Assembly (NCBI GenBank): GCA_963719285.1
Contig: CAVRBO010000004.1
Coordinates: 842,064 to 906,063, forward strand
Direction of reading: 5' to 3'
From: an uncultured Chloroflexia bacterium
GTDB taxonomy: Bacteria; Chloroflexota; Limnocylindria; Limnocylindrales; CSP1-4
Length of the DNA: 64,000 nucleotides
Each line of letters opens with the position of its first letter. The stretch's first letter is position 1. Positions 25,719 to 63,461 of the stretch are shown in pieces. Position numbers and translations under genes: made by a program. The notes under the pieces were generated by a model that saw only the letters and a program-made list of their open reading frames with translations, was not told the origin of the DNA and ran no database searches.

Positions 25719-25742
25719 CCGGGCTCGGTCGATCGACAGTGT

Positions 25743-38759: not shown

Positions 38760-38761
38760 CC

Positions 38762-38777
38762 TGCGCAACCGATTTCG
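38762..38777. promoter_or_regulatory. Candidate LacI-family operator (copy 4)
   Basis: TGCGCAACCGATTTCG lies 70 nt upstream of the Gfo/Idh/MocA start. Its core GCAACCGATTTC matches the reverse complement of the core of the 43357 site at 11 of 12 positions. Confidence 0.35.
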
Positions 38778-38845
38778 CGGGGCGAGGGCGGGTCGACTAC
38801 CATCGCGGCCTGGCGCCCAGCGGAGTGCGCCCATCGGAGGGCCGG

Positions 38846-43321: not shown

Positions 43322-43372
43322 TATTGACGTGGGGCGAGGCGCGATGATACCTTCCCTGCAATCGGTTGCGCA
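43322..43372. promoter_or_regulatory. Putative promoter plus LacI-family operator (copy 1)
   Basis: TATTGACG is at 43322-43329. The near-palindrome TGCAATCGGTTGCGCA at 43357-43372 matches the LacI-family consensus TGNAANCGNTTNCA in 13 of 14 positions. It sits immediately upstream of the AAGGAG site and ATG of iolD, and is divergent from the large paralog at 43299. Confidence 0.5.
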
Positions 43373-43382
43373 AGGAGAAAAG

Positions 43383-45269: not shown

Positions 45270-45328
45270 CCCACCCACACGCCCCGAGCCTGCCCGGGCC
45301 GGGCGCGTCCGCTTAGCGAGGAGACAGC

Positions 45329-46567: not shown

Positions 46568-46583
46568 TCGCGAGGGGTCGTCG

Positions 46584-48505: not shown

Positions 48506-49434
48506 CGGTCGAGGAGCGCCGCCTGCGGTTGCTCCGACTGGCCGGCGATCGGGGCATCGTGGCCGGCATCGCGCTCGATCATCGCGACAGCCTCCGATCC
48601 ATCCTCGAGCGGCGGGGCCTGGTCGGCCTCACGGACGCCGCGATGCGCTCCCTCAAGGTCCGGCTGGCCCGGGCGCTCGCCCCGGCGGCCACGGCGATCA
48701 TGCTGGACGAGGAATTCGGCGGCGAAGCGCTCGATGCGGGCGTGGTGCCGGCGTCAGTCGGCCTGATCATGCCCCTCGAGGCGCAGGGCTACGAGATGGT
48801 CGAGGACGGTCGGACGACCACCCTGCTCGCCGACTTCTCGCCCGACCATGCCCGCCGGCGCGGCGCCGACGCCTGCAAGCTGCTCCTGCCGTACCGGGTC
48901 GACCACGAGCCCTCGGCGATCCGCCAGGACGCCCTCGTGGAGGCGGCGGCGCGGACGTGCCACGAGGCCGGGCTGCCGCTGGTCGTGGAGCCCGTCGTGT
49001 ACCGCTGGTCCACCGAGCCGGCCGCCACCTACGCCGGTGCGTACGGACGCCTCGCGATCGAGGCCGTCGCGCGCATCCGGGCACTCGGACCGGACCTGCT
49101 CAAGCTGCCGTTCCCCGTACTCGGCCTGGCCACCGACGGCGAGGCGGCGGCGCTCGAAGCCTGCCGGGCGCTGGACACGGCGTGCGCGGGCACGCCCTGG
49201 GTCCTCCTCGGCGCGGGCGCAGATACCGCCACCTTCATCGACCAGATCCGCATCGCCGGTACGGCCGGGGCGTCCGGGTTCCTCGCCGGTCGCGGGATCT
49301 GGGCCGCCGCCCTGGGGCGGGATCCGGACGAGGTGGAGCGGGTGGCGCTGGCCGTCTGCCGCCCGGACTTCGAGCGCTGCCGGGCGATGGCCGAACGGGT
49401 CGCCCGTCCCATCGAGGCACCGGCGAGCGGCTGA
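48502..49434 (+). CDS. Class I aldolase (tagatose-1,6-bisphosphate aldolase / LacD-DeoC-like); candidate 6-phospho-5-dehydro-2-deoxy-D-gluconate aldolase
   Basis: IALDHRDSLRSI...DACKLLLPYRVDH...LPLVVEPVVY...DLLKLPFPV. A GTG start overlaps the iolB stop (GTGA). Confidence 0.65.
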   Translation: MTVEERRLRLLRLAGDRGIVAGIALDHRDSLRSILERRGLVGLTDAAMRSLKVRLARALAPAATAIMLDEEFGGEALDAGVVPASVGLIMPLEAQGYEMVEDGRTTTLLADFSPDHARRRGADACKLLLPYRVDHEPSAIRQDALVEAAARTCHEAGLPLVVEPVVYRWSTEPAATYAGAYGRLAIEAVARIRALGPDLLKLPFPVLGLATDGEAAALEACRALDTACAGTPWVLLGAGADTATFIDQIRIAGTAGASGFLAGRGIWAAALGRDPDEVERVALAVCRPDFERCRAMAERVARPIEAPASG

Positions 49435-50347: not shown

Positions 50348-50395
50348 ATTGACGTCGCGGATGCGCGGGTGCTACGGTCTGCGCAATCGGTTGCA
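50347..50395. promoter_or_regulatory. Putative promoter plus LacI-family operator (copy 2, autoregulatory position)
   Basis: GATTGACG is at 50347-50354. TGCGCAATCGGTTGCA at 50380-50395 is essentially the reverse complement of the 43357 site. It lies upstream of the LacI regulator gene. Confidence 0.5.
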
Positions 50396-50587
50396 GTCGT
50401 TGGAGGTGCGGTCCAAGATGCGTGCTTCCCCGCGCGATCTCCGGGCGACCGACGTCGCCTGGTCGGGCGACCTGCGCTGCCATCGGGCCGGATCGGCCGG
50501 TCGGGCACGCCAGCGGGCGGCCCTCGACCGGAGCGCCCGCGGGGCTGACCGCGCCCTTCGCGTCGCGGTCTAGGGGAGGAGGGGCGC

Positions 50588-51643
50588 GTGGCGGTGAGCG
50601 GGGACGGCCAGCGCCGTCGGATCCTCCTCAAGGATGTCGCCGCGCGGGCGAACGTGTCCGGTTCGACGGCATCGCGTGCCCTGGCCGACGATCCACGCAT
50701 CAGCCTCGGGACGCGTGAGACGGTCAAGGCCGCCGCGGCCGACCTGCACTACGTCCCGAACGCCGCCGCTCGGAGCCTCCGCGTCCGGCGGACGCGGACG
50801 CTCGGCCTGCTATTGCCGGATCTCCGCGATCCGGTCCACGGCCAGATCGCCTCCGCGTTCGAGCAGGAGGCCCGCGAGGCGGGCTATGTCGTGATGGTCG
50901 TGGCCGGCGAACGGGACCTCGTCCGCGAGCGCCTCGCGCTGCGCATCTTCTCGGAGCACGGCACGGACGGCGTGGCGATCGTGTCGAGCGTCCTGTCGCC
51001 CAGGGAGCTCCGGGAGCGGGTCGACCCCGACCGGCTCGTGCTCGTCTGGCCGGACCACCGGAGCCTGCCCCGGCGCGACGGGCCGCGCGTCCCCGGGGTG
51101 ATCCAGACCGATGACGAGAGCGGCGTCCGCGCGGCCGTCGATCACCTCGTCGACAGCGGCTGCCGGCGGCTGGGCTATGTCGAGAGCGGCGTGCGCGCCT
51201 CCAACACGATCCGTGCCGAGACCGTGGCCGCGACCCTGCGCTCGCGTGGCATCCGCGCCCCCGTGCGGATGTTCAAGGGGAGCGTCGACGCGTGGCGCGA
51301 CCCGGCCGACCTCGCGGCCGAGATCGCCGGGGACCTGCCCGACGCGCTGGTGTGCTACGACGATCTCCTCGCCCTCGGCCTCATGGACGCGCTGCGCGAT
51401 CGCGGCGTGCGCATCCCGGACGACGTCGGCATCGTGGGCTTCGACGGCATCCCGTTCGCGGCGATCTCCAATCCCCGGCTGACCACGGTGGCCGTACCGT
51501 CGGCCGAGATGGGCCGGGCGGCGGCCGCGTCGCTCATCCGGGCGGTCCACGAGGGCGTCCTGCCCGACGGGGTGATGTTGTCGGTGGAGTTCAAGGTCCG
51601 CGAGAGCACCCGCAGCGCAGCGGTGCGGGGTGGTCGCTCGTGA
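50588..51643 (+). CDS. LacI family transcriptional regulator
   Basis: LKDVAARANVSGSTASRALADDPRISLGTRETVKAAAADLHYVPNAAARSL is the LacI helix-turn-helix, followed by a periplasmic-binding-protein-like sugar-binding domain. A GTG start follows a GGAGGA ribosome-binding site. Confidence 0.85.
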   Translation: MAVSGDGQRRRILLKDVAARANVSGSTASRALADDPRISLGTRETVKAAAADLHYVPNAAARSLRVRRTRTLGLLLPDLRDPVHGQIASAFEQEAREAGYVVMVVAGERDLVRERLALRIFSEHGTDGVAIVSSVLSPRELRERVDPDRLVLVWPDHRSLPRRDGPRVPGVIQTDDESGVRAAVDHLVDSGCRRLGYVESGVRASNTIRAETVAATLRSRGIRAPVRMFKGSVDAWRDPADLAAEIAGDLPDALVCYDDLLALGLMDALRDRGVRIPDDVGIVGFDGIPFAAISNPRLTTVAVPSAEMGRAAAASLIRAVHEGVLPDGVMLSVEFKVRESTRSAAVRGGRS

Positions 51644-52586
51644 CGTGCCGATCCGACCCGCTCGGGCGCGAGGCGCGTCCCGGCCGGCCGATCCGTTGCC
51701 GCTGACGCCGGACGGGGGAGCCGAGCCGCAGGTCGATCTCGCGGATCTCGCCCGGCGCGGCCGGTTGCTGGTCGTCGAGTCGGTCGCCCACAGTGGCGCC
51801 GGGCACATCGGCGGCCCGCTGTCGGCGATGGACCTGCTCCTCGCCCTGTTCTTCCGGGTCCTGCGCATCCGCCCCGACGAGCCGGACTGGCCCGATCGGG
51901 ACCGGTTCATCCTGTCCAAGGGCCACTCCGCGATCGGGCTGTACGTGGCGATGGCGCTGCGCGGCTACTTCCCGGTCGAGGAGCTCGCGACGTTCGACAG
52001 CGGCGACAGCCGGCTCCAGGGCCACCCGGACATGACCCGCCTGCCCGGGCTCGAGGCGTCCACGGGTTCCCTTGGCCAGGGGCTCGCGGTCGGGCTCGGG
52101 ATCGCCCTGGGAGCGCGGATGCGCGGCCTGGACGTGCACACGTTCGTCATGCTCGGCGACGGTGAGACCCAGGAAGGGATGATCTGGGAGAGCGTGATGG
52201 TCGCGGCCCGCTACGGGCTGGGCAACCTCACCGCGATCGTCGACTGCAATGGCCTCCAGCAGTACGGCTGGCCGTTGAGCCCGGGCGACGAGGCTCGCGC
52301 CGACCGGCAGGACCCGCTGGCCGGGACGCGCCTTCGGGCCGCGCTCGAGGCGTTCGGCTGGCGCGTGCTGGAGATCGACGGCCACGACACGGAGGCGATC
52401 GTGGCGGCATGCACGGATGCCCGTGCCGGCGCGCCCGCCGGGCGGCCCACCGCGATCCTGGCTCGGACCGCGAAGGGCCGCGGGCTGTCGTTCACCGAAG
52501 GGCGGTTCGAGTGGCACGCCCGGGTGGCCACGGCCGACGAGGTGGCAGCGGCCAGGCGCGAGCTCGCGCCGGAGGTCGTGTCGTGA
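51630..52586 (+). CDS. Transketolase, N-terminal (TPP-binding) subunit of a split transketolase
   Basis: HSGAGHIGGPLSAMDLL...RDRFILSKGHSAIGLY...GSLGQGLAVGLGIA...FVMLGDGETQEG. The start is uncertain and overlaps the end of the LacI gene. Confidence 0.8.
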   Translation: MVARDVPIRPARARGASRPADPLPLTPDGGAEPQVDLADLARRGRLLVVESVAHSGAGHIGGPLSAMDLLLALFFRVLRIRPDEPDWPDRDRFILSKGHSAIGLYVAMALRGYFPVEELATFDSGDSRLQGHPDMTRLPGLEASTGSLGQGLAVGLGIALGARMRGLDVHTFVMLGDGETQEGMIWESVMVAARYGLGNLTAIVDCNGLQQYGWPLSPGDEARADRQDPLAGTRLRAALEAFGWRVLEIDGHDTEAIVAACTDARAGAPAGRPTAILARTAKGRGLSFTEGRFEWHARVATADEVAAARRELAPEVVS

Positions 52587-53542
52587 CGACCGCCATGCGC
52601 GACGCCTGGGCGGAGACCCTGTCCGAGCTCGCGGACGAGGACCCGAACCTGCTCGTCCTCGACGCGGACCTCGGGACCTCCACTCGGGCGGACCGGTTCG
52701 CGCTCGCGCACCCGGACCGCTTCCTGCAGATGGGCATCGCCGAGCAGAACATGGTCGGCACGGCGGTCGGGCTCGCGACGATGGGCTACGTCCCGTGGCT
52801 CTCGTCGTTCGGCGTGTTCTTCACCCACCGTGCGGTCGATCCGATCCGGATGCTCGTCGCCCAGACCCACGCGAACGTCAAGATCGGCGCGGCCTACACG
52901 GGGCTGCTCACCGGGTTCACCGGCAAGACCCACCAGGATGTCGAGGACCTCGCGATCATGCGGGCGATGCCGGGCATGACGGTGATCTCCCCGGGCGACG
53001 CCGCCGAGTGCGCGGCCGCGATCCGCTGGGCCACGGCGACGCCGGGTCCGGTCTACCTGCGCCTCGCTCGCGACGCGGGGCCCGACCTGTTCGATGCCGG
53101 GTACCGCTTCGAGCCCGGCCGGGTGGTCTCGTTGCGCGAGGGGTCGGACGTGCTTCTCGTCTCGACCGGCGTGCAGTCGGCGCGCTGCGTGGCGGCGGCC
53201 TCGCTCCTCGATGCGGCGGGCATCTCCGCGGGACTCCTCCACGTCCCGTCCATCAAGCCGGTGGATGCCGCCGCGATCGCCGCGGCGGCCGCGCGGGTCG
53301 AGCTCGTGGTGACGGTCGAGGAGCACACGATCCACGGCGGCCTGGGCGGTCTGGTGGCCGAGATCCTGGGCGAGCTGCAGCCCCGCCGGATGGTCCGCAT
53401 CGGCATCGCCGACACGTGGGGCGAGTCGGCGCCCAACGCCTTCCTGCTCGAGCGCCACGGACTGTCCGCCGAGCGGGTGGCCGAGCGCGTCGCGCGCGAG
53501 TTCCCCGGCGCCCCGGCGCAGGTCGGGACCACGGATCGATGA
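52583..53542 (+). CDS. Transketolase, C-terminal (pyrimidine-binding) subunit
   Basis: ...MGIAEQNMVGTAVGLATMGYVPW...FFTHRAVDPIRM... It overlaps the upstream stop (GTGA). Confidence 0.8.
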   Translation: MTTAMRDAWAETLSELADEDPNLLVLDADLGTSTRADRFALAHPDRFLQMGIAEQNMVGTAVGLATMGYVPWLSSFGVFFTHRAVDPIRMLVAQTHANVKIGAAYTGLLTGFTGKTHQDVEDLAIMRAMPGMTVISPGDAAECAAAIRWATATPGPVYLRLARDAGPDLFDAGYRFEPGRVVSLREGSDVLLVSTGVQSARCVAAASLLDAAGISAGLLHVPSIKPVDAAAIAAAAARVELVVTVEEHTIHGGLGGLVAEILGELQPRRMVRIGIADTWGESAPNAFLLERHGLSAERVAERVAREFPGAPAQVGTTDR

Positions 53543-53573
53543 CCACCAGGCCAGGGCTGATCGAGGAGATCGG

Positions 53574-54617
53574 ATGAGCGGATTCACGGTCAAGAATCCC
53601 GGCGACATCGGGGTCGCGTTCCTCGGCGTGGGCCGGATCGGCACGACCCACCTCCTGACCCTGGCCGGGATCCCCAACGCCCGCCTCGTCGTCGTCGCCG
53701 ATCTCGACCCGGCCGAGGCGGAGCGCGGCCGCGAGGTCGGACGGGCGGAGCGGGCGACGATCGACGCGCTCGACGCGATCGACGACCCGGCCGTGGAGGC
53801 GGTCGTCATCGTCACCCCTACCAGCACCCACGCCACCCTCATCGAGGCCGCCCTGCGGGCGGGCAAGGCGATCTGGAGCGAGAAGCCCATCGCCCTGGAC
53901 CTGGCCGAAACGAACCGGGTCGTCACCCTCTGGCGCGAGACCGGCCTGCCGGTCCAGATGGGGTTCATGCGCCGGTTCGATCCGGGCTACGTCCGGGCGA
54001 AGGAGCTCATCGACGCGGGCGAGCTCGGCCGCGTCGAGCAGTTCCGGGCGTATTCGCGCGACACGTACCTGCCGCCGGCCAAGTTCATCCGCGACAGTGG
54101 CGGGTCGTTCCTCGACATGAGCGTCCACGACTTCGACCTCGCCCGGTTCCTCGTCGGGGAGGTCGAGGAGGTCTCGGCCTGGGGCAGCAACGTCATCGAC
54201 CGGCGCTTCGAGGAGGGCGGCGACGTCGACACGGCCGTCACGATGCTCCGCTTCCGCAACGGGGCCTTGGGTGTCGTGGAGATGTCCCGGCGATCCGCCT
54301 GGGGCTACGACATACGGACGGAGGTCGCCGGTGCGGCCGGCAAGGTCGTCGTCGAGGCGCCCCACAAGACCGATCTGACCTTCTCGCGCCGGTTCGGCTA
54401 CGAGGGCGACCACTACGAGAACTTCCCCGATCGGTTCGAGGTGGCCTACCGGCTCGAGTTCGAGGCGTTCTTCAAGGCGCTCGCGGCGGGGGTCGTACCC
54501 ACACCGGGTCCGGACGAAGCGCTCGAGACGCTGCGGCTCGCGCTGGCGGCCAAGAAGAGCTGGCTCGAGGGGCGGCCGGTCAGGGTCGACGAGATCGTCG
54601 CCGAGGTGCCCGCGTGA
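53574..54617 (+). CDS. iolG: Inositol 2-dehydrogenase-like Gfo/Idh/MocA oxidoreductase
   Basis: GVAFLGVGRIGTTHL...IWSEKPIALDLAE...GELGRVEQFRAYSRD... A GAGGAG ribosome-binding site is present. Confidence 0.75.
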   Translation: MSGFTVKNPGDIGVAFLGVGRIGTTHLLTLAGIPNARLVVVADLDPAEAERGREVGRAERATIDALDAIDDPAVEAVVIVTPTSTHATLIEAALRAGKAIWSEKPIALDLAETNRVVTLWRETGLPVQMGFMRRFDPGYVRAKELIDAGELGRVEQFRAYSRDTYLPPAKFIRDSGGSFLDMSVHDFDLARFLVGEVEEVSAWGSNVIDRRFEEGGDVDTAVTMLRFRNGALGVVEMSRRSAWGYDIRTEVAGAAGKVVVEAPHKTDLTFSRRFGYEGDHYENFPDRFEVAYRLEFEAFFKALAAGVVPTPGPDEALETLRLALAAKKSWLEGRPVRVDEIVAEVPA

Positions 54618-55453
54618 CCGGGCCCGTCCGCCACCTTCGACCAGGGACCGGGCCGGGCGTCGTCCTCGACATGTCCCCGGAGAGCGTCGGCTGGCGCTAC
54701 CTGTCGTCCCGGATCGTCGTGCTGGGGCCCGGCGAGACCTTCGAGGGGGACACCGGCGGCAACGAGATCGCGGTCGTGCCGCTCCAGGGCTCCGGCACGT
54801 TCGCGTTCGGCGGCGAGACGCGTGCCGTCGCGCGGGCCGACGTCTTCACGGCCAAGCCGCAGGTCCTGTATCTGCCGCCGGGGACGGGCTATGTGATCGG
54901 CGCGGTCGGCGCCTTCGAGGTGGCGATCGGCGAGGCGCCCGCGACCGGTCGGTATCCGGCCCGCCTGTATGCGCCGGGCGAGCTGCCGGCCTTCGCGCGC
55001 GGTGGCGGGAATGTGAGCCGGGGCGTGACGGCGACCCTCGATCCATCGTTCGACTCGGAGCGGCTGATCGCCTACGAGATCCTCACCCCGAGCGGCAACT
55101 GGTCGAGCTTCCCGCCGCATCGTCACGACGGGCGCGAGGGGACGACCTATCACGAGGAGTCGTACTACTACCGGCTGTCGCCGGCCGATGGGTTCGCGAT
55201 CCAGCGGATCTACACCCGGGACACGGATCTCGACGTCGCGATCGCGGCGGCGGATGGCGACCTGGTCCTCGTCCATGAGGGCTACCACACGGTGGCGGTC
55301 GCACCCGGCACGAACGCGTACTACCTGAACTTCCTGGCCGGCGACACGAAGCCCGTGACCCAGCTCAACGATCCGGCCTACGCGTGGATCGCCGACGACT
55401 GGACCGGCCGGCCGATCGCGATCCCGCTCGATCCGGCGGACCCTCCCGGCTGA
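54614..55453 (+). CDS. iolB: 5-deoxy-glucuronate isomerase, second paralog
   Basis: VGWRYLSSRIVVLGPGE...TPSGNWSSFPPHRHDGREGTTYHEESYYYRL is the IolB family. It is roughly 35% identical by eye to the 47579 copy. A GTGA overlap with iolG is present. Confidence 0.8.
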   Translation: MTGPVRHLRPGTGPGVVLDMSPESVGWRYLSSRIVVLGPGETFEGDTGGNEIAVVPLQGSGTFAFGGETRAVARADVFTAKPQVLYLPPGTGYVIGAVGAFEVAIGEAPATGRYPARLYAPGELPAFARGGGNVSRGVTATLDPSFDSERLIAYEILTPSGNWSSFPPHRHDGREGTTYHEESYYYRLSPADGFAIQRIYTRDTDLDVAIAAADGDLVLVHEGYHTVAVAPGTNAYYLNFLAGDTKPVTQLNDPAYAWIADDWTGRPIAIPLDPADPPG

Positions 55454-55466
55454 CCCGGGTGCGTCC

Positions 55467-58061
55467 CTACCGTCCGGTCCGGTCGCCCAGCCTGCGGCGA
55501 AGGGTCTCGAGGCTCGTGTCGAGGAACGCGACCATGCGCGCCCGCTCGGCCGGGTCGGCCACGGCGGCCAGGCCGGCGACCCACGTCCGCGCGCCCTCGA
55601 TGACCTGTTCCACGACCCGTGCGTCCTCGACGGACGGCTCGAACGGCCGGCCCCCGACCTCGACGTACACGGGCGACGTGTGGGCCGCCATCGAGGTCTG
55701 GAAGGCCGATACGATCTCGTGCCGGCTGCGCGAGCGGGCGGCGATCCACGCCCCGGCCTCGACCGCGATCGTCTCGTGGAGCGCGAGCTCGGTCGTGCCG
55801 CCGGCCGCGCTCGTCGCCGCCACGATCCGGCCGTTCACGATCAGCTCCACCTCCGACACGACCGGCTGTGCGGCGCGCGCCCGGACCGCCACCTCGAGCC
55901 GGCCGCCCGAGCTCAGCCGGACCACGTCGCCCGGCTCGTGGCCATCGACGGCGAGTTCGAGGACCGGACCGGAGGTGACGAACGTGCGGCCGGCGCGGAC
56001 GGCGGCAGCCCACGTCTCGAACGTCAGCGTCTCGTCGGTCAGCAGGTGGACATATGCCCGGACCGCCCCGATCGGCACCTCCGACGACATCTTGTCGGTG
56101 CCGCCCACGATCGGCAGGCGATAGCCCAGGTTCAGGAAGCGGTACCACTCCAGCACCGACGGGTCGTCCAGGCCGGGAGACAGCGCCTGGGTCTCGAGGG
56201 CGTCGATCTTGCCGGCCACGATGTCGGCCCCGATCTCCGCGTACGGAAGCGGGAAGTGGGCCGCCACGACCAGGCCGCCGGCGGCGCGGCAGCGATCAGC
56301 CCAGTCGGCGAGCAGGACGTCGAGCGCGCCCGCCATCCGGCCCTCGGGCGGGCCGGCGCTGGCATACGGCAGCGTGGGCCGGTGGGCGCCGAGCAGCGCC
56401 AGATGGCCGAGCATGTTCTGGCGGTTCTCGGTCCCCACGACGACGAGTCGCCGGCCGGACGGGTCGGCCATCGAACCCCATGGCAGGTCCGTCACGTTCG
56501 TGTACAGCTCGCCCCACTGGGCGGCCAGGAGGTTGACCAGGTCGACGTCCTCGGCGGCGGCCTGGAGGAGGGCCGTGGACGGCGCCAGGAAGTGGACGTG
56601 GGTGTCGGCGGTGACCCAGCGGCCGGCGTGGAGGTCGATCGCCCGGGCGAGCGGCAGCTCGAGCCGGCGGGTCGCGGGATCCACCTCGATCCGGGCGCGG
56701 TGCGGCAGCCGGTCGAAGCCGCCGACGACCTCGACGTCCACGCCACCGACCGGCAGGTCGATCGCGAACCGGCCCGGGACATAGGCATACGCGGCGGTCC
56801 CGAGGATCAGGTCGCCGCCGGTGTCCTCGAAGAACGCCGGGTTGATCTCGTCGCGGTGGCCGACCGGCGGCAGGTACCGGCCGTCCGGCGTCGTGAAGCG
56901 GACCCGGCCGGGCACGCGCTCGCCGGTCGTCCGGTCCACGATGTCGACCTCCACCGGCACGCGCGGCGCGGGCAGGACCTCGATCGAGCGGAGGCCGGCC
57001 GGGTCGCGCGGCACGTTCCCGGCGAGCAGGTCCCGCCCGGGGACGTCCCAGTCGCCGAAGCCGACGACGGCATCGGGAGCGAGCGACAGGTCGACGACGC
57101 TCGATCCGACGGTCGGGGCGCCGGGCGCCACCCGCGGCGTCCCCCATCCGAAGATCGTGCCAACGTCCCCGGCTCCGTTCGCGCCCGGGGCGGTCGCTGC
57201 CGGAAGGGTCCGGATGATCGTCCCGAGATCCACCTGCGGTGGCCGGCCGTCGAACCCGTTCACGCGGACACTGAACCGCGGGCTCCGGACGAGGGGATCG
57301 CCGGTGCCCCGGAAGAGCGTGACCGCCGCGACGACGACGTCGCTCCCCGGCCTGCCGTCCGTCAGCGACTCGAGCCGGAGCGTCGCCGGCTCGGTCCCCG
57401 GCGGGAGCGCGATCGCGCACAGCCAGAGGAGCACGTCGTCAGTGGGGCTCGGCACGAAGTCGGACATCCCCACCTGGTTGCCGCCGAACGTGCCGGGCAT
57501 GATCGTGAGCGAGCCCGACTGGCCGGCCGGGGCGTACCGGCCCGGGCCCTGGGCGGCGTGCGGCCCGCGCCAATCGAGGACCTCGTTCGCCAGGTGCGGG
57601 ATGGCCGCGAACGGCGCCGAGCCCCAGCCCAGGATCCCGTCGTCGATCTCGAACCGGCGGCGGATCGTCCGCGACGTCTCGCGTCCGGTGCGGTCCGCGA
57701 CCGTGTACCGGGCGAGCGGCTCGCCGACCGGGACGACGTGGCCCACCGCCAGCCCTGGCGGTCGCCGGCCGGCGTCATCGCGCCAGGCATCGCACAGGTG
57801 GGCGACGACGACGTGGCTGGCGGACCCTTCGCCGGGCAGGTCCAGCGTCGCCGTCCCATCCAGCAGGATCCAGCGCGCGACGTCCGCGCCGGCGGCCGGG
57901 CCCAGCTCGAACGGCAGCCCATGGAACACCTGCGGCCCGTCCGGCAGGCGGGCCAGCGCGGGCTCGTAGACGGGGTGGAAGCGGGCGGCGACGACGCCTT
58001 CGGTCGCGTTCCGGAAGCGCTCCAGGTCGACCGTCCGGGCGAGCGGGCTGGAGCGTCCCAT
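55467..58061 (-). CDS. Large uncharacterised protein (864 aa), paralog of 40702-43299, with a C-terminal divergent PHP-like module
   Basis: Collinear with 40702-43299 over its full length, with many identical blocks (ARFHP.YE.ALARLP.GP.VF.GLPF.LG; RRRFEI.DGI.GWG; YAPAG; TADTHVHFLAPSTALLQAAAED; GTENRQNMLGHL; GGTDKMS). Confidence 0.8.
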   Translation of the reverse strand: MGRSSPLARTVDLERFRNATEGVVAARFHPVYEPALARLPDGPQVFHGLPFELGPAAGADVARWILLDGTATLDLPGEGSASHVVVAHLCDAWRDDAGRRPPGLAVGHVVPVGEPLARYTVADRTGRETSRTIRRRFEIDDGILGWGSAPFAAIPHLANEVLDWRGPHAAQGPGRYAPAGQSGSLTIMPGTFGGNQVGMSDFVPSPTDDVLLWLCAIALPPGTEPATLRLESLTDGRPGSDVVVAAVTLFRGTGDPLVRSPRFSVRVNGFDGRPPQVDLGTIIRTLPAATAPGANGAGDVGTIFGWGTPRVAPGAPTVGSSVVDLSLAPDAVVGFGDWDVPGRDLLAGNVPRDPAGLRSIEVLPAPRVPVEVDIVDRTTGERVPGRVRFTTPDGRYLPPVGHRDEINPAFFEDTGGDLILGTAAYAYVPGRFAIDLPVGGVDVEVVGGFDRLPHRARIEVDPATRRLELPLARAIDLHAGRWVTADTHVHFLAPSTALLQAAAEDVDLVNLLAAQWGELYTNVTDLPWGSMADPSGRRLVVVGTENRQNMLGHLALLGAHRPTLPYASAGPPEGRMAGALDVLLADWADRCRAAGGLVVAAHFPLPYAEIGADIVAGKIDALETQALSPGLDDPSVLEWYRFLNLGYRLPIVGGTDKMSSEVPIGAVRAYVHLLTDETLTFETWAAAVRAGRTFVTSGPVLELAVDGHEPGDVVRLSSGGRLEVAVRARAAQPVVSEVELIVNGRIVAATSAAGGTTELALHETIAVEAGAWIAARSRSRHEIVSAFQTSMAAHTSPVYVEVGGRPFEPSVEDARVVEQVIEGARTWVAGLAAVADPAERARMVAFLDTSLETLRRRLGDRTGR

Positions 58062-58094
58062 CAGGCTGGGTCGGGCCGGCGCGACCGGGCGCTG

Positions 58095-58141
58095 TATTGA
58101 CGGGCCATAGGTCGGACGCTAGCATCGTACAAACGGTTGCA
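58095..58141. promoter_or_regulatory. Putative promoter plus LacI-family operator (copy 3)
   Basis: TATTGACG is at 58095-58102. TACAAACGGTTGCA at 58128-58141 matches TGNAANCGNTTNCA in 13 of 14 positions. It lies in the divergent intergenic region between the large paralog (58061) and the PotA-like ABC operon (58281). Confidence 0.45.
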
Positions 58142-58280
58142 CAAGAGGGAGCTGATGCGCGCATCCCCACCCCCTGCCGCCCGATCATGGTGATCCCGAT
58201 ACACGAACGGGAGCTCCCCGCCGCGCCGACCGAGCCGGCTGTGCCCGAGACGCTGATCGCGCCAGCGAGCGGTTTCGACC

Positions 58281-59366
58281 TTGCCTGAGTCGACACCCGC
58301 CATCGAGCTGCGCCACACCACGAAACGCTATGGCCAGACGGTCGCCCTCAACGACGTGTCGATGGTGATCGAACCCGGCGAGTTCTTCTGCCTCCTCGGC
58401 CCGTCCGGGTGTGGCAAGACGACGACCCTGAACCTCATCGGCGGGTTCATCCCGGTGAGCGCGGGCGAGCTGCTGATCGAGGGCCGCACGGTCAACGACC
58501 TGCCGCCCCACAAGCGCAACGTCAACACGGTCTTCCAGAACTACGCCCTGTTCCCGCACATGACCGTGGCCCAGAACGTCGCGTTCGGCCTGCGGATGGA
58601 GAGCCTGCCCGCGGCGGAGGTGACCCGACGGACCGGCGAGTACCTGGAGCTCGTCGGGCTGGAAGGGCTGAGCCAGCGGCTTCCGTCGGAGATGTCCGGC
58701 GGCCAGCAACAGCGGGTGGCCCTGGCCCGGGCCCTGGCCAAACGTCCCGCGGTCCTGCTGCTCGACGAGCCGCTCGGCGCCCTCGATCTCAAGCTGCGCC
58801 GGAACATGCAGTCGGAGCTGTCGCGTATCCATCGCCAGGTGGGCACGACCTTCGTCTTCGTCACCCACGATCAGGACGAGGCGCTCTCGATGGGCACCCG
58901 GATCGCCATCATGTCGGGCGGTCGGGTCGCCCAGATCGGGACGCCCCGGGAGGTCTACGACCGGCCGGTCAACCGCTTCGTGGCCGACTTCGTCGGCGAG
59001 ACGAACTTCCTGTCCGGGACGGTGGCGCCGGAGGACGGCCGGCCGGTGTTCGGCCTGTCGGGCGGCGGCCGGGTGATCGCCCCCACGGGATCGCCCGCCG
59101 GGCCCGCGACGCTCATGGTCCGCCCGGAGTCGCTGACCCTGCGGCCGCTCGACGATCCGAGCCCGGAGCCCGGTATCACCGGGCGGATCGTGGACATCGC
59201 ATTCCTGGGCAACCACACACGGATCACCCTCGCGACGACGGCAGGTGACATCGTCGCGATCCGGCCACACGGGACCAGTGTTCGAACGACCCACCAGGAG
59301 GAGGAGTTGGGGGAGGAGGTGTGCGTATGGTGGCCTGCGGACGACGCCGCACTCATCGGAGACTGA
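58281..59366 (+). CDS. ABC transporter ATP-binding protein (PotA/spermidine-putrescine type)
   Basis: Walker A (GPSGCGKTT), the signature LSGGQQQRVALARAL, Walker B (LLLDEPLGALD), and a C-terminal TOBE-like domain. The first available in-frame start is the TTG at 58281; there is an in-frame stop at 58254. Confidence 0.8.
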   Translation: MPESTPAIELRHTTKRYGQTVALNDVSMVIEPGEFFCLLGPSGCGKTTTLNLIGGFIPVSAGELLIEGRTVNDLPPHKRNVNTVFQNYALFPHMTVAQNVAFGLRMESLPAAEVTRRTGEYLELVGLEGLSQRLPSEMSGGQQQRVALARALAKRPAVLLLDEPLGALDLKLRRNMQSELSRIHRQVGTTFVFVTHDQDEALSMGTRIAIMSGGRVAQIGTPREVYDRPVNRFVADFVGETNFLSGTVAPEDGRPVFGLSGGGRVIAPTGSPAGPATLMVRPESLTLRPLDDPSPEPGITGRIVDIAFLGNHTRITLATTAGDIVAIRPHGTSVRTTHQEEELGEEVCVWWPADDAALIGD

Positions 59367-59403
59367 TCGACCGTCACGTGGACGATGCAAGGAGGAGCGT
59401 GGA

Positions 59404-60588
59404 ATGACTGATCTGATGCGCGAATACAGCCGACGGCAGTTCCTCAAGGTGACTGCCGCGGCGAGCGCAGCTGTCGGCGCCGGCGGCATCCTCGCCGCCT
59501 GTTCGACCGCCGCGACGCCGGTCCCGACGACCGCTCCGACGGCCGCCGGCACGGCCGGTCCGACTGCCGCTCCGGCGACCGCCGCCCCGACCGCCGCCCC
59601 GACCGGAACGTTCAACTGGATGACCTGGGGTGACCACTGGTACCAGGCCCAGGTCGACGCCATCGCCGCGACGAACAACATCAAGATCAACGCGACGCTG
59701 TTCAGCGACAACATCGACGCCTATACCAAGGTCAAGCAGGTCGGCGGCCAGATCGACATGGTCTCGGGGGACGCCCTGTGGGTACCCCACTACTTCGAGG
59801 CGGGCCTCATCGAGGCGTGGGACATCAACTCGCTCGAGGTCGCGAAGCAGCTCTACTCGATCGCTCGCTCGTTCCCGATCTGGACGAAGCCGGAAGGCTA
59901 CCTCGGCTACCCGTTCGGGTGGTCGCCGGTCCAGATCTACTACGACCCGGCGCACGTCTCCCCGGCCCCCGATTCGTGGGAGGTCCTCATCGACCCGAAG
60001 TACAAGAAGCGGGTCGTCGTGGAGAACCAGCCGGTCGAGATCATGGCCTACATGGGCAAGTTCGCCGGGGTGGGCAATGCCTACAGCATGACCCCCGACG
60101 AGATCGCCAAGGCCAAGGACCTGCTCAAGCAGCTCAAGCCGAACATCCTGAAGCTGGCCGACCAGGCCACCGACACGATCGCCCTGCTCAAGACGGGTGA
60201 GGCGTGGATCGCCACCGGCAACCTCGGCACCGAATCGCGGGTCAAGGACCAGGGCGGCCCCGATCTCAACGTCTTCACGCCCAAGGAGGGGACCATCGGC
60301 TGGATGGACTCCGAGATGATCGTGAAGGGCGGCGGGAACGAGAACCTGATCATGCCGTTCCTCGAGCTGGCCGAGCAGGCCGAATACATCGCCGCGAACT
60401 TCATCCTCAACGGGCGGCCGCTGTTCAACGAGGCCGCCTACAAGATCCTGGTCAACCAGGGCCAGCAGGAGCGCGCCGATCGGTTCCTGTACAACAAGCC
60501 CGAGACGGTCCAGACGATGGACCTCAAGGGCCCCGGCACGTCCACCCAGGCCGTGATCGACGCGTTCAACGAGGTCTTCGGCGCCTAG
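59404..60588 (+). CDS. ABC transporter substrate-binding lipoprotein (PotD/PotF polyamine-type family) with a Tat-like signal
   Basis: SRRQFLKVTAAASAAVGAGGILAAC (twin-arginine motif plus lipobox) is followed by a Pro/Ala/Thr linker and a PotD-like fold of 394 aa. An AGGAGG ribosome-binding site is present. Confidence 0.8.
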   Translation: MTDLMREYSRRQFLKVTAAASAAVGAGGILAACSTAATPVPTTAPTAAGTAGPTAAPATAAPTAAPTGTFNWMTWGDHWYQAQVDAIAATNNIKINATLFSDNIDAYTKVKQVGGQIDMVSGDALWVPHYFEAGLIEAWDINSLEVAKQLYSIARSFPIWTKPEGYLGYPFGWSPVQIYYDPAHVSPAPDSWEVLIDPKYKKRVVVENQPVEIMAYMGKFAGVGNAYSMTPDEIAKAKDLLKQLKPNILKLADQATDTIALLKTGEAWIATGNLGTESRVKDQGGPDLNVFTPKEGTIGWMDSEMIVKGGGNENLIMPFLELAEQAEYIAANFILNGRPLFNEAAYKILVNQGQQERADRFLYNKPETVQTMDLKGPGTSTQAVIDAFNEVFGA

Positions 60589-60618
60589 TCCCGAAGAGCT
60601 CGGGACGGGACCGACAAC

Positions 60619-61536
60619 ATGACGACCGAGATCCGCGGCGGGGCCGGAGAGGCTCCGCTCGCGGGTTCCGGCCGCGGCGTGGGCGCGCGGCTGGGACGGG
60701 CCCTCCCGTTCTGGCCGGGCCTGCTCATGCTGACCCTGCTGTTCATCATCCCCATGTTCATCATGTTGCTGTTCAGCTTCTGGCGGACCAACTCGGACTT
60801 CGACCTGGTCCGCGAGTTGAACACCAACAACTACGCGCGGTTCTTCAACCAGCCGACGTACATCCGGACCTTCTTCAAGACCCTGCTGATGGGGTCCGCC
60901 GTGACGATCGGCGGGCTGGCCATCTCCCTGCCGTTCACCTACTTCCTCGTGCGCTACGTGAGCCGGCGCTGGCAGCGGATCGTGCTCCTGGCCGTGATCG
61001 TCCCGTTCTGGACGAGCTACCTGCTCCGGGTCTACGCATGGGAGGCGATCCTGGGCGAGACGGGCGCGCTGAACCAGTTCCTCATGGGCATCGGCGTCAT
61101 CCACGAACCGTCGACCCTGTTCGTCTACAACAACCTGACGGTCTTCGTCGTGCTCGTGTACGTCTACTTTCCGTTCGCCGCGCTCGCCCTGTACGCGGCC
61201 CTCGAGAAGTTCGACTTCACCCAGCTCAACGCGGCCCAGGACCTGGGCGCACGGCCCGACCAGGCGTTCCGGCACATCCTGCTGCCCCAGATCCGGACCG
61301 GGATCATCACGGCCTGCATCTTCGTGTTCATCCCGATCCTGGGCGAGTTCCTCACCCCGACCCTGGTGGGTGGAGCCGACGGGAGCCTGATCGCGAACCT
61401 GATCGTGAACTTCACCCGCCAGGGCCAGTACCCGGAAGGGGCCGCGCTGGCGATCATCATCGCGGCGTTCGTCACGATCGTGCTCATCGTGTTCCGCCGA
61501 TCCCTGCGGGTCGAGGATGTGGTGACCCGTGGCTAA
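60619..61536 (+). CDS. ABC transporter permease (PotB-like)
   Basis: Six TM helices and the motif AAQDLGARPDQAFRHILLPQ. Confidence 0.85.
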   Translation: MTTEIRGGAGEAPLAGSGRGVGARLGRALPFWPGLLMLTLLFIIPMFIMLLFSFWRTNSDFDLVRELNTNNYARFFNQPTYIRTFFKTLLMGSAVTIGGLAISLPFTYFLVRYVSRRWQRIVLLAVIVPFWTSYLLRVYAWEAILGETGALNQFLMGIGVIHEPSTLFVYNNLTVFVVLVYVYFPFAALALYAALEKFDFTQLNAAQDLGARPDQAFRHILLPQIRTGIITACIFVFIPILGEFLTPTLVGGADGSLIANLIVNFTRQGQYPEGAALAIIIAAFVTIVLIVFRRSLRVEDVVTRG

Positions 61537-62374
61537 GGGGATCGGCGCGCTCGACACGATGCCGGTCAGTCCGCTGGCCCGGCAGACCCGTGGCTGCCTC
61601 GGTGTCCTCGCCGGCGCGACGCTGGTGTTCCTCTACCTGCCGATCGTGTTCCTCATCCTGTTCTCGTTCGAGGAGGCCGACACGCCGGGGTTCCCCATCA
61701 CGGGCCTGACCCTCCACTGGTACGAGAAGATGCTCACGGACAGCGCGATCCACTCCGCCCTGTTCAACTCCGTGCTCGTGGCCGTCATCGTCTCGCTCCT
61801 GGCGACGCTGATCGGCACGATGGCGGCCTTCCCGCTCGTGCGTGGCGGCATCCGCTTCCCCGGGACCGCCCGGATCCTGTTCACGCTGCCGATCATGATC
61901 CCGGGCGTGCTCATCGGGCTCGGCCTGCTCGTCTTCCTGACCCTGCTCGGGATCAAGCTGGGCCTGCACACCGTGATCCTGGGCCACCTCGTGTTCACGA
62001 CGCCGTTCGTCGTGCTCATCGTGGCCGCCCGGCTCCAGGGCTTCGACCGACGACTCGAGTGGGCGGCCGCGGACCTCGGGGCGAACGGCCGGCAGACCCT
62101 CCGCCACATCGTCCTGCCCCTCATCGCGCCGGCGATCGTGGCCGGAGCGCTCCTGAGCGTCACCCTCTCGATCGACGAGTTCGTCGTGACGTTCTTCACG
62201 ATCGGCCCGCAACTCACCCTGCCGCTGTTCATCATCACCCAGATCAAGTTCGGCGTGACCCCGGAGGTCAACGCCCTGGCCGCCGTCATCCTCGTCGGCA
62301 CGCTGTCCGTGTTCGGGGTCGGCTCGCTCCTGCTCGGCGGCAGCCGCAGGCTCCGGCACAGCGACGCCGAATGA
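61529..62374 (+). CDS. ABC transporter permease (PotC-like)
   Basis: The TM pattern and the motif AAADLGANGRQTLRHIVLPL. It overlaps the previous gene by 8 nt. Confidence 0.85.
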   Translation: MAKGIGALDTMPVSPLARQTRGCLGVLAGATLVFLYLPIVFLILFSFEEADTPGFPITGLTLHWYEKMLTDSAIHSALFNSVLVAVIVSLLATLIGTMAAFPLVRGGIRFPGTARILFTLPIMIPGVLIGLGLLVFLTLLGIKLGLHTVILGHLVFTTPFVVLIVAARLQGFDRRLEWAAADLGANGRQTLRHIVLPLIAPAIVAGALLSVTLSIDEFVVTFFTIGPQLTLPLFIITQIKFGVTPEVNALAAVILVGTLSVFGVGSLLLGGSRRLRHSDAE

Positions 62375-62429: not shown

Positions 62430-63461
62430 GTGACCGGCCAGACCGTGGCGCCGGCCGCCGCGTCCGGACTCCTCGGTCCGCGACCCGCGCCCGACGCGCC
62501 GATCCGGATCGCGTTCCAGATCTGGGGCCAGGCGGTCGCCTGGCCGGACCTCATGGCGGCCGGCGAGCGGGTCGAGGCGCTCGGCTTCGCCAGCCTGTTC
62601 GCCAACGATCACCTCATGCCGATCCTGGGCGACGCGGATGGGCCGGTGCTCGGTTCGGAAGGGCCGGTCTTCGAGGGCTGGATGACCCTCGGCGCCTGGG
62701 CCGCGCGGACCACCCACATCCCCCTCGGCGTGCTCGTGTGCGGGGTCGGTTACCGGAACGTGGGGCTCACGGTGAAGATGGCGACCGCCCTCGACCACGC
62801 CAGTGGCGGCCGGGCGATGCTCGGCCTGGGCGCCGGGTGGCACGAGCCCGAGCACCGCGCGTTCGGCTACGAGATGCTGTCCCTGGGCGACCGGATCAGC
62901 CGGTTCGACGAGGCCAGCCGGCTCGCCCGGGGGATGCTGGACGGTGCGCCCTTCACCCAGGACGGGCGCTGGGTCAGCGGCGTCGCGGTGCGCAACGACC
63001 CGCCGCCCGTCCAGGCCAGGATGCCGCTCCTGATCGGTGGCAGCGGCGAGAAGCGGACACTCCGGATCGTCGCCCGCGACGCGGACATCTGGAATGGCGA
63101 GGGCGACCCGGCGACGTTCGCCCACAAGAGCGCGGTGCTCGATGCGCACTGCGCCGAGCTGGGCCGCGATCCGGCCGCGATCCGGCGGACTGTCGGCGTC
63201 CAGCCGGTCTGCATCCGCGACACGCGTGAGGCGGCGGTCGACGCGCTGGCCGCGATCCTCACGCTCCAGGGTGCCGACCCGGCGAGCGCCCGCGCCTGGG
63301 CGGCGAGCTCGCCACTGGCCGATACCCAGGACACCGTGGTGCGGCTGTTCCGCGCCTGGCGCGCCGCCGGGGCCGAGGAGGCCGTCGTCGACCTGCCCAC
63401 GCCACTGGACGACGAGACGATGGAGCGACTGGCCGGGCCGGTCCGGGATCGACTCGCGTGA
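62430..63461 (+). CDS. LLM-class F420-dependent oxidoreductase
   Basis: ...FANDHLMPILG...FEGWMTLGAWAART...LGLGAGWHEPEH is luciferase-like. A GTG start is used. Confidence 0.8.
   Translation: MTGQTVAPAAASGLLGPRPAPDAPIRIAFQIWGQAVAWPDLMAAGERVEALGFASLFANDHLMPILGDADGPVLGSEGPVFEGWMTLGAWAARTTHIPLGVLVCGVGYRNVGLTVKMATALDHASGGRAMLGLGAGWHEPEHRAFGYEMLSLGDRISRFDEASRLARGMLDGAPFTQDGRWVSGVAVRNDPPPVQARMPLLIGGSGEKRTLRIVARDADIWNGEGDPATFAHKSAVLDAHCAELGRDPAAIRRTVGVQPVCIRDTREAAVDALAAILTLQGADPASARAWAASSPLADTQDTVVRLFRAWRAAGAEEAVVDLPTPLDDETMERLAGPVRDRLA

What the first reader, a model, noticed from the sequence alone, without database searches (positions are those of the whole stretch)
55467..58061. The second large paralog sits alone, convergent to iolB2 and divergent from the amine-type ABC operon across an operator-bearing intergenic region
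This is the same architecture as the 40702 copy, but it is not followed by the TIM-barrel isomerase gene. The 219 nt upstream intergenic region carries a TATTGACG box plus a LacI-type palindrome and is shared with the PotABCD-like operon. The two paralogs therefore appear to be co-regulated with uptake and with iol-like catabolism. This fits a role in acting on the imported substrate, for example releasing a cyclitol from a conjugate.
Basis: inference. Interest (0 to 1): 0.6.

Follow-up and report, generated by a model that had tools for sequence, protein, structure and literature searches.

The report
McbA-like hydrolase in inositol regulon
This gene encodes a large, uncharacterised metal-dependent hydrolase, distantly related to pesticide (carbaryl) hydrolases, that uncultured soil Chloroflexota keep next to an amine-type importer, a sugar aminotransferase and inositol-breakdown genes under one repressor; its substrate is still unknown.

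Summary
55467..58061(-) is a real 864-aa gene, 58% identical over its full length to the 40702..43299(-) copy. It is convergent with iolB2 (13-nt gap) and 219 nt from a PotABCD-type ABC operon. The TATTGACG box is the -35 of a promoter facing the ABC operon. The palindrome that follows is a LacI-type operator, found three times in the window and 107 times in homologous loci.

The protein has no Pfam hit. Residues 481-801 match NCBIfam CehA/McbA metallohydrolase (154 bits, cutoff 80). Its metal-ligand pattern matches carbaryl hydrolase McbA, not the canonical trinuclear PHP phosphoesterases. The first ~360 residues form a rare beta-domain that McbA lacks.

Close homologues are confined to Chloroflexota (Limnocylindrales) MAGs and split into two old paralogue clades plus a deeper single-copy group. 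They sit almost always beside the ABC importer, LacI, a KdnA-like DegT aminotransferase and IolD-like genes. Distant relatives keep importer+DegT+GFO/IDH/MocA or other importer contexts, but not iol.

Most likely it is a cytoplasmic hydrolase that removes a substituent from an imported amine-bearing cyclitol conjugate. Substrate and bond type are inferred, not shown. I rate it a new variant of a known kind, of moderate interest.

The parts
55467..58061 (-). Target gene: 864-aa cytoplasmic CehA/McbA-type metallohydrolase (paralogue 2)
   Evidence: ORF and GC3; NCBIfam NF038032, 154.5 bits against cutoff 80; no Pfam hit; the N-terminus shows no signal peptide (read by eye).
56997..58061 (-). N-terminal all-beta region (aa 1-355). 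It is rare, AziU2-like and CBM-like, and contains a highly conserved loop (aa 145-205) modelled at low confidence
56637..56984 (-). Transthyretin-like beta-sandwich (aa 360-475) with invariant R386, H402 and Y427
55962..56621 (-). PHP-fold catalytic barrel (aa 481-700) carrying D486, H488, H490, E545, H553, H602, D620, E623 and D656
55476..55961 (-). C-terminal beta-sandwich (aa 701-802, containing the HTSPVY motif with H794) and a helical hairpin (aa 811-862)
   Evidence: AF2 secondary structure; H794 is conserved in the family and in McbA but not in the window's third CehA/McbA protein.
58062..58280 (.). 219-nt divergent regulatory region shared with the ABC operon
   Evidence: conserved core block in 19 distinct sequences.
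58097..58125 (+).
   Evidence: 1 found, 0.1 expected; conserved.
58127..58142 (.). LacI-type operator GTACAAACGGTTGCAC (core 58130-58141)
58116..58144 (-). Possible promoter for the target gene, TTGTGC-N17-TAGCGT. Its -35 lies inside the operator and its -10 overlaps the + strand -10 through the GCTAGC palindrome
   Evidence: My reading of the sequence. In deep-branch loci the equivalent TTGTGC-N18-TAGCAT points at the big gene. Not tested.
58155..58193 (+). 12-aa upstream ORF (MRASPPPAARSW) with a Shine-Dalgarno sequence, in the 5' leader of the ABC operon
   Evidence: A Shine-Dalgarno sequence followed 5-9 nt later by a start codon is present in most of the 19 sequences (L007, L018 and L071 show no ATG there), but the peptide sequence is not conserved.
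58281..62374 (+). PotABCD-type ABC importer: ATPase with TOBE_2 (58281-59366), Tat-signal SBP_bac_6 binding protein (59404-60588) and two permeases (60619-61536, 61529-62374)
62430..63461 (+). F420-type luciferase-like oxidoreductase in the same operon. In homologues it is followed by IolM-like and IolE-like genes, which lie beyond the end of this window
50588..51643 (+). LacI-family regulator, the presumed repressor that binds the operator
   Evidence: its own promoter carries the operator at 50384-50395.
40702..43299 (-). Paralogue 1 (865 aa), divergent from iolD and followed by the TIM-barrel gene 39843-40700
43322..43385 (+). Second promoter/operator module: TATTGACG, operator 43359-43370, Shine-Dalgarno, and the true iolD ATG at 43383. 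It is shared divergently with paralogue 1
43383..49434 (+). iolD, a KdnA-like DegT aminotransferase (45329-46567), iolC-like, iolB1 and a DeoC/LacD-type aldolase
51630..55453 (+). Split transketolase, an IolG-like dehydrogenase and iolB2, downstream of lacI

Best explanation
The gene encodes a cytoplasmic metal-dependent hydrolase of the CehA/McbA branch of the PHP fold, with a two-metal-type ligand set. It belongs to a LacI-repressed regulon for uptake and breakdown of an amine-bearing cyclitol compound.

Proposed sequence of events:
1. The PotABCD-type importer brings in a substituted amino-cyclitol or cyclitol conjugate.
2. The big hydrolase (and its paralogue, for a related substrate or bond) removes a substituent. 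By analogy with McbA this is most likely an ester, carbamate or amide.
3. The KdnA-like DegT aminotransferase and the GFO/IDH/MocA (IolG-like) dehydrogenases turn the freed amino or hydroxy carbon into a ketone (an inosose).
4. IolE-like, IolD, IolB, IolC and the aldolase take the product to central metabolism.
5. The inducer releases LacI from three operators. Two of these lie in bidirectional promoter regions that each face one paralogue.

Shown here: domain identity, conserved metal ligands, synteny, and operator conservation.
Inferred: that LacI binds this motif, that the target gene is under it, the substrate, and the bond cleaved.
For: - Ligands: D486, H488, H490, E545, H553, H602, D656 and H794 are invariant in relatives down to 35% identity and are shared with carbaryl hydrolase McbA. 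Both lack the SDG-Asp, TDH-His and DxH-His of canonical PHP enzymes, which the neighbouring gene 36850-38256 retains.
- Location: no signal peptide on the enzyme, whereas the binding protein has a Tat signal.
- Synteny: the P2-type gene is always divergent from ATPase-SBP-permease-permease; the P1-type is always divergent from iolD. Counts within 10 kb are.
- Distant relatives (30-41% identity in the N-domain) still sit with DegT, GFO/IDH/MocA and ABC genes, in one operon in L084.
- Cyclitol chemistry: IolD, IolB1 and IolB2 pass their equivalog cutoffs. The ABC operon in homologues carries IolM-like and IolE-like genes.
- The DegT is closest to KdnA, which acts on a free sugar acid.
- Operator: three sites in the window, 107 promoter+operator modules in homologous loci, and inside the promoter that faces the big gene in deep-branch loci.
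Against: - No substrate, activity or expression data exist for any member, and all close homologues come from uncultured MAGs.
- A free inosamine would need no hydrolase, so the conjugate is a postulate.
- Similarity to McbA is only 25.6% over aa 427-804, and McbA's natural substrate is itself unknown.
- The nearest solved folds include phosphoesterases (2anu, 3e38) and non-hydrolytic enzymes (PsfC; AziU2 for the N-domain).
- Rhizobial relatives lack iol and DegT neighbours, so specificity probably varies across the family.
- The only promoter the scan finds in the intergenic region faces away from the target gene.
Confidence: 0.5

Rival explanations
1. It is a phosphoesterase, as in most characterised PHP enzymes. 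It would dephosphorylate an imported inositol phosphate, aminocyclitol phosphate or phosphodiester headgroup (for example glycerophosphoinositol-like compounds) and release the cyclitol for the iol pathway.
For: Top PDB neighbours are annotated PHP phosphoesterases: 2anu, 3e38, 3o0f and RNase AM. An aminotransferase followed by a PHP phosphatase is a known pairing in histidine biosynthesis, and a dehydrogenase, DegT and phosphatase trio is known from kanosamine synthesis (my own knowledge, not tested here). The ATPase also scores well against the 2-aminoethylphosphonate transporter models PhnT and PhnT2. R547, K657 and R668 are invariant or nearly so and could bind an anion.
Against: All three ligands of the third metal that typifies PHP phosphoesterases are absent. 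The pattern matches the carbamate hydrolase McbA instead. The binding protein's nearest relatives are polyamine binders. The locus has no kinase or phosphatase logic beyond IolC.
Confidence: 0.2
2. It is not a hydrolase. It would be a dinuclear-metal enzyme doing oxidative or eliminative chemistry on the amino-cyclitol (C-N or C-C cleavage, or ring chemistry), as PsfC does on a phosphonate and AziU3/U2 on an amino-sulfate.
Confidence: 0.1
3. The operator controls only the + strand operons (ABC, iolD, lacI). The two big genes would merely be neighbours, expressed from their own unregulated promoters.
For: All three window modules have promoter, operator and Shine-Dalgarno on the + strand, and the scan finds no - strand promoter.
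Against: The P1-iolD intergenic region is only 83 nt, so any P1 promoter must overlap the operator. In deep-branch loci the operator sits in the spacer of TTGTGC-N18-TAGCAT, which points at the big gene. The divergent arrangement is kept in essentially every locus.
Confidence: 0.15

Closest known systems
Carbaryl hydrolases McbA (Pseudomonas) and CehA (Rhizobium), NCBIfam NF038032 CehA/McbA family metallohydrolase
   Same: Same domain model, well above cutoff. The same architecture from the transthyretin-like sandwich through the PHP barrel, the C-terminal sandwich and the helical tail. The same ligand pattern DxHxH, E, H, H, D/E, D and HTSP(V/I)Y, and the same absence of third-metal ligands.
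   Different: Only 25.6% identity, restricted to aa 427-804. The 360-aa N-terminal domain is not shared. By my reading of the aligned N-terminus, McbA starts with a hydrophobic, signal-like segment (not tested), whereas the target has none. McbA is plasmid- and transposon-borne in a xenobiotic context, whereas the target is in a conserved, LacI-regulated cyclitol/amine catabolic locus.
Canonical PHP-family phosphoesterases (e.g. TM0559 2anu, histidinol-phosphate phosphatase, RNase AM)
   Different: It lacks the Asp and the two His residues that hold the third metal. It has no Pfam PHP hit even at E<=10. It is four times larger, with three extra beta domains.
Classical myo-inositol catabolic (iol) operons, and rhizopine (moc) catabolism
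   Same: IolD and IolB are at equivalog level. IolC-, IolG- and IolE-like genes and an aldolase are present, all repressor-controlled. As in moc loci, an amine-bearing cyclitol is the likely substrate, and GFO/IDH/MocA and TIM-barrel enzymes are present (the moc comparison rests on my own knowledge).
   Different: By my own knowledge, no big PHP-type hydrolase, no DegT aminotransferase and no PotABCD-type importer are described in those systems. Here the regulator is LacI-type, and split transketolase, F420-type and IolM-like genes are added.
AziU2 of the AziU3/U2 aziridine synthase (PDB 7wuw)
   Different: AziU2 is a 197-aa stand-alone subunit in an antibiotic biosynthesis pathway. Here the fold is fused to a hydrolase, and no AziU3-like partner is present.

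Membership tests
CehA/McbA family metallohydrolase (NCBIfam NF038032, domain model) | Score above the curated cutoff over the full 315-position domain model | tested here: met
   154.5 bits against cutoff 80, model positions 1-315, aa 481-801. The paralogue scores 148.6 bits.
CehA/McbA family metallohydrolase | Metal-ligand pattern of a characterised member (McbA) | tested here: met
   D486, H488, H490, E545, H553, H602, D620, E623, D656 and H794 all align with identical residues in McbA.
CehA/McbA carbaryl hydrolases (orthology or function) | Full-length similarity and carbamate-pesticide hydrolase activity | tested here: not met
   tblastn aligns McbA only to aa 427-804 at 25.6% identity, and the N-terminal 360 aa are not shared. 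Activity cannot be tested with these tools.
Canonical PHP domain (Pfam PF02811), trinuclear phosphoesterases | Pfam PHP match | tested here: not met
   No Pfam family at E<=10. The neighbouring gene 36850-38256 does hit PF02811.
Canonical PHP domain, trinuclear phosphoesterases | Third-metal ligands: Asp of HxHxxxSDG, His of the TDH motif, His of DxH | tested here: not met
   A 4-residue gap replaces VHSD; Q515/W516 stand in place of the TDH motif; D656-K657-M658 replaces DCH.
PHP fold | Distorted (beta/alpha)7 barrel resembling solved PHP proteins | tested here: met
LacI-family repressor regulon | A palindromic operator with a central CG at the promoters of the regulated operons, and a LacI gene in the locus | tested here: met
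   Motif CAAWCGGTTGC at three promoters in the window and in 107 modules in homologous loci. The LacI gene is at 50588-51643.
LacI-family repressor regulon | The repressor binds the operator and is released by an inducer | not testable with these tools
   Needs EMSA or a reporter assay.
myo-inositol (iol) catabolic cluster | IolD and IolB equivalogs; IolC, IolG, IolE and an aldolase | tested here: met
   IolD 890.6 bits (cutoff 715); IolB1 263 and IolB2 240.5 (cutoff 205). IolC 256.8 (cutoff 300) and IolG 336.3 (cutoff 355) are best hits but below cutoff. The IolE-like gene was seen only in homologues, at 155.8 bits (cutoff 290).

The most novel reading that the evidence does not exclude
The P1/P2 family may show the natural, pre-xenobiotic role of the CehA/McbA carbaryl-hydrolase family. 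In that reading it is a dedicated hydrolase that unlocks a so far undescribed aminocyclitol-conjugate catabolic pathway (PotABCD-type uptake, then the big hydrolase, a KdnA-like transaminase and IolE/D/B/C/J) in Limnocylindrales, a Chloroflexota order known so far mainly from metagenome-assembled genomes. The rare AziU2-like N-terminal domain would act as the substrate-recognition or second catalytic module.
Probability: 0.25. Interest if true: 0.6.

Novelty: new variant of a known kind. Interest (0 to 1): 0.45.

Why it matters
If the hydrolase really opens an amine-bearing cyclitol conjugate, it would define a new entry route into the inositol pathway. It would also give a natural function to the enzyme family from which carbamate-pesticide hydrolases were recruited. 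It would point to a carbon and nitrogen source used by an uncultured Chloroflexota order, which could help cultivation. Finally, the conserved operator and three-promoter architecture make a clean, testable regulon model for a phylum with almost no characterised transcription control.

Tried and rejected
- Pfam at E<=10 gave nothing for either paralogue.
- Sequence searches of the PDB with the single protein and with a 53-sequence profile gave only chance hits.
- Rfam found no riboswitch or known RNA in 55300-58400, including the ABC leader.
- No intrinsic terminator lies between the convergent iolB2 and the target.
- Literature searches found no paper on this family or pathway: scyllo-inosamine with iolD and aminotransferase, and Limnocylindria with inositol. 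One search failed on syntax.
- An obligate P1/P2 heteromer is unlikely. Some loci show only one type within 10 kb (L004/L009 have P2 and IolD-TIM but no P1), and deep-branch genomes show one copy per locus.
- Orthology with McbA/CehA is rejected.
- A secreted enzyme is rejected (no signal peptide).
- I considered mycothiol-derived GlcN-inositol, inositol phosphates, rhizopine-like inosamines and carbamoylated aminocyclitols as substrates. None can be chosen or excluded with these tools.
Full report
1. What is in the sequence

The window is about 72% GC. Codon-position GC picks out 55467..58061(-) as a real 864-aa gene (GC1/2/3 = 0.76/0.53/0.94). An identical protein is on record from a 1.04-Mb contig (P0001). 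It is 58% identical over 862 aligned residues to the 865-aa product of 40702..43299(-).

Its stop codon lies 13 nt from the stop of iolB2 (54614..55453, +), so the two genes are convergent, and no terminator-like hairpin lies between them. Upstream, 219 nt separate it from the first gene of an ABC operon. The other copy is followed on its own strand by an AP_endonuc_2 TIM-barrel gene (39843..40700), and the target is not.

2. The regulatory region

The TATTGACG box (58095-58102) contains the -35 of the only sigma-70-like site in 55300-58400. That site is TTGACG-N17-TAGCAT, on the + strand, facing the ABC operon (1 found, 0.1 expected). Two bases after the -10 comes GTACAAACGGTTGCAC (58127-58142), which matches its own reverse complement at 12 of 16 positions, then AAGAGGGAG and an ATG.

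The same layout occurs twice more in the window. One copy is at 43322-43385, ahead of iolD; this also shows that iolD starts at ATG 43383, not at the upstream GTG. The other is at 50347-50420, ahead of lacI. The core motif with up to 2 mismatches gives 4 strand-matches at these 3 sites, against 1.02 expected, and only 1 of 100 shuffles reaches 4.

In 19 distinct sequences (the window plus 18 orthologous target/ABC intergenic regions), the block TATTGACG..GACGCTAGCAT..CAAACGGTTGCACAAGAGG is at least 90% conserved at nearly every position, while the flanks diverge freely. Across the first 78 homologous loci fetched (L001-L078) there are 107 operator cores with a TTGAC within 45 nt upstream. Most loci have two or three, at the iolD, lacI and ABC promoters.

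In the deeper single-copy loci, lacI is itself divergent from the big gene. There the operator sits in the spacer of TTGTGC-N18-TAGCAT pointing at the big gene, and a second operator precedes DegT. In the window the mirror-image elements exist on the minus strand. They are TTGTGC-N17-TAGCGT for the target and TTGCGC-N18-TATCAT for paralogue 1, in both cases with the -35 inside the operator. These two minus-strand promoters are my own reading and are untested.

My conclusion is that this is a conserved LacI-type regulon with three operator regions, two of them bidirectional, each facing one paralogue.

3. What the protein is

There is no Pfam hit even at E<=10. NCBIfam NF038032 (CehA/McbA family metallohydrolase) matches aa 481-801 over the whole model at 154.5 bits, against a cutoff of 80.

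An AlphaFold2 model built on 53 homologues (pLDDT 81, pTM 0.81) shows five parts:
- an all-beta N-terminal region (aa 1-355);
- a transthyretin-like sandwich (aa 360-475);
- a PHP-type barrel (aa 481-700);
- a second sandwich (aa 701-802);
- a helical hairpin (aa 811-862).

That N-domain is rare: 214 of 1.84 billion representative clusters match it at E<=0.001, and many of those are fragments.

D486, H488, H490, E545, R547, H553, H602, D620, E623, D656 and H794 are invariant in relatives down to 35% identity.

I aligned the target with McbA from Pseudomonas sp. XWY-1 and with the window's third CehA/McbA protein, 36850..38256. The target family and McbA share every one of these ligands, including the HTSP(V/I)Y histidine. 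Both lack the three residues that bind the third metal of canonical PHP phosphoesterases: the Asp of SDG, the His of TDH and the His of DxH. The third protein keeps all three.

McbA aligns only to aa 427-804, at 25.6% identity. The target is therefore a member of the CehA/McbA domain family with an McbA-type metal site. It is not an orthologue of the carbaryl hydrolases, and it carries an N-terminal domain they lack. It has no signal peptide, whereas the binding protein next door has a Tat signal.

4. Distribution and context

Two searches each found about 430-450 full-length homologues, nearly all from metagenomes. The named ones are Chloroflexota or Candidatus Limnocylindrales MAGs. A scan of one genome per species found 237 relatives. 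The best 80 (74 loci) are all Chloroflexota MAGs, except one labelled Verrucomicrobiia.

The full-length proteins fall into two clean clades, with 66-67% identity within each and 55% between them. One clade contains the target and the other contains paralogue 1. A deeper group, about 51% identical to both, occurs once per locus.

Synteny is strict:
- P2-type genes are divergent from ATPase-SBP-permease-permease-F420 oxidoreductase, and convergent with (iolB2)-GFO-transketolase-lacI or with lacI directly.
- P1-type genes are divergent from iolD-DegT-iolC-iolB-aldolase and are followed by the TIM-barrel gene.

Of 48 loci with at least 8 kb on both sides, LacI lies within 10 kb in 44, DegT in 43, ABC genes in 41 and an iol gene in 38. 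Most of the misses are genes lying just beyond the flank.

The deep group keeps the ABC genes, LacI, DegT, GFO/IDH/MocA, a TIM barrel and an IolD-like TPP enzyme, with an SDR, an HpcH aldolase and a lactonase for the later steps.

More distant members (30-41% identical in the N-domain) still sit with related genes. L081 has LacI and DegT. L080 has ABC genes and DegT. L084 has a single operon reading SBP, two permeases, MFS, ATPase, DegT, GFO/IDH/MocA and then the big protein.

Two cultured rhizobia carry relatives at 35-37% identity on plasmids, without iol or DegT neighbours. Bradyrhizobium has MFS, the big protein, LacI and GH88. Mesorhizobium has a PotA-type ABC operon, a serine hydrolase, the big protein and a glutamine-synthetase-like gene.

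So 'importer plus this enzyme' is general, 'plus DegT and GFO' is widespread, and 'plus iol' is the Limnocylindrales version.

5. The pathway around it

- IolD (890.6 bits, cutoff 715) and both IolB copies pass their equivalog cutoffs. IolC and IolG are best hits just below theirs.
- The ABC ATPase passes the potA subfamily cutoff, and the permeases best match PotB and PotC. The binding protein is a weak PotD/PotF relative.
- In homologues the ABC operon continues with an IolM-like Zn-dehydrogenase and an IolE-like dehydratase, both best hits but below cutoff. So the transporter operon itself encodes inosose chemistry.
- The DegT is far closer to KdnA (281 bits, full length), which transaminates a free sugar acid, than to any nucleotide-sugar aminotransferase (next best 176 bits).

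Taken together, the imported compound is most simply an amine-bearing cyclitol or a conjugate containing one.

6. Mechanism and rivals

Best supported, at confidence about 0.5: a cytoplasmic McbA-type hydrolase removes an ester, carbamate or amide substituent from the imported conjugate. DegT and IolG-like enzymes can then make the inosose that IolE, IolD, IolB, IolC and the aldolase degrade, all under one LacI repressor.

The rivals are:
- a phosphoesterase acting on cyclitol phosphates (0.2), weakened by the missing third-metal ligands;
- a non-hydrolytic dinuclear-metal enzyme, suggested by the PsfC and AziU2 fold matches (0.1);
- on the regulatory question, that only the + strand operons are under the operator (0.15), weakened by the 83-nt P1/iolD spacer and by the deep-branch promoter.

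An obligate P1/P2 complex is unlikely, because some loci show only one type.

7. Novelty and verdict

The domain family is known and already annotated on some MAG proteins. The iol genes, the PotABCD-type transporter and LacI control are all ordinary. Four things are new:
- the subfamily, with its rare N-terminal domain fused to an McbA-type core;
- its ancient duplication;
- its fixed place in an iol-plus-aminotransferase regulon of an uncultured order;
- a clean operator model.

None of the papers my searches returned describes the family or the pathway. I rate it a new variant of a known kind, with interest 0.45. The co-regulation inference is well supported by comparative evidence. The proposed function is plausible but unproven, and should be refocused on the aminotransferase partnership.

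Noticed in passing
window 58155-58193 and 50418-50573: Each of two operator modules is followed by a Shine-Dalgarno sequence and a short upstream ORF: 12 aa (MRASPPPAARSW) before the ABC ATPase, and 51 aa before lacI. Both begin MRASP. In most of the 19 aligned sequences a start codon follows the Shine-Dalgarno sequence (L007, L018 and L071 show no ATG there), but the peptide varies. In the short-leader loci I read (for example L010) the uORF stop overlaps the ATPase's TTG start, which suggests translational coupling or a leader-peptide device.
   Followed up: partly
window 36850-38256(-) and 35852-36853(-): A third CehA/McbA-domain protein (468 aa, 206 bits) keeps the full canonical trinuclear PHP motifs. 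It overlaps by 4 nt a 333-aa gene with no Pfam or NCBIfam hit. This pair lies just upstream of the paralogue-1 unit, and its function is unknown.
   Followed up: partly
window 57447-57629 (aa 145-205 of the target): This segment has many invariant Trp, Gly and Pro residues (W146, G147, W164, G166, P167, G174, G180, P189, P204) yet is modelled at pLDDT below 50 in both predictions. It is a strongly conserved loop with no predicted structure, and may be a lid over the active site or an oligomer interface.
   Followed up: no
window 43329-43385: The longest-ORF start of iolD (GTG 43329) is wrong. The promoter, operator and Shine-Dalgarno sequence lie inside that extension, and the real start is ATG 43383 (METVRLTVGQA). 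The P1/iolD intergenic region is therefore 83 nt, not 29.
   Followed up: yes
window 38283-39871(+): High third-position GC switches reading frame at about 38.75 kb (ORF 38283-38759, then the frame of ORF 38378-39871). This is either two genes or one gene with a frameshift, convergent on the TIM-barrel gene. It was not annotated.
   Followed up: no
window 49490-50347(+): A 285-aa gene, missed by my GC3 filter, lies between the aldolase and the lacI promoter. By position it corresponds to the 280-aa AP_endonuc_2 TIM-barrel genes seen in homologues (L002 17796-18638). It has no NCBIfam hit, and Pfam was not run on the window copy.
   Followed up: partly
L001 682-1770; window 51630-53542: The split transketolase downstream of lacI is present in many loci but absent from others. 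L001 has no transketolase between lacI and the target's orthologue and carries a TAL_FSA transaldolase gene elsewhere in the locus, so the C2/C3-transfer step may differ between genomes.
   Followed up: no
L002 975-2375 and L004 1139-2542: A class-III aminotransferase that passes the glutamate-1-semialdehyde aminomutase subfamily cutoff (406 bits, cutoff 398) is paired with a 402-aa GFO/IDH/MocA gene. The pair lies just beyond the ABC operon in homologues and would be outside this window. It is a second amine-handling enzyme in the locus.
   Followed up: no
window 58001-62000 and 22001-26000: GC content drops to 0.655-0.69 in these stretches, against about 0.72-0.75 elsewhere. The first stretch covers the binding-protein and permease genes.
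   Followed up: no
L028: One P1-type locus with the usual TIM-barrel neighbour comes from a 6.9-kb contig binned as Verrucomicrobiia, while all the others are Chloroflexota. It is 72% identical to the window's paralogue 1, so mis-binning is more likely than gene transfer.
   Followed up: no
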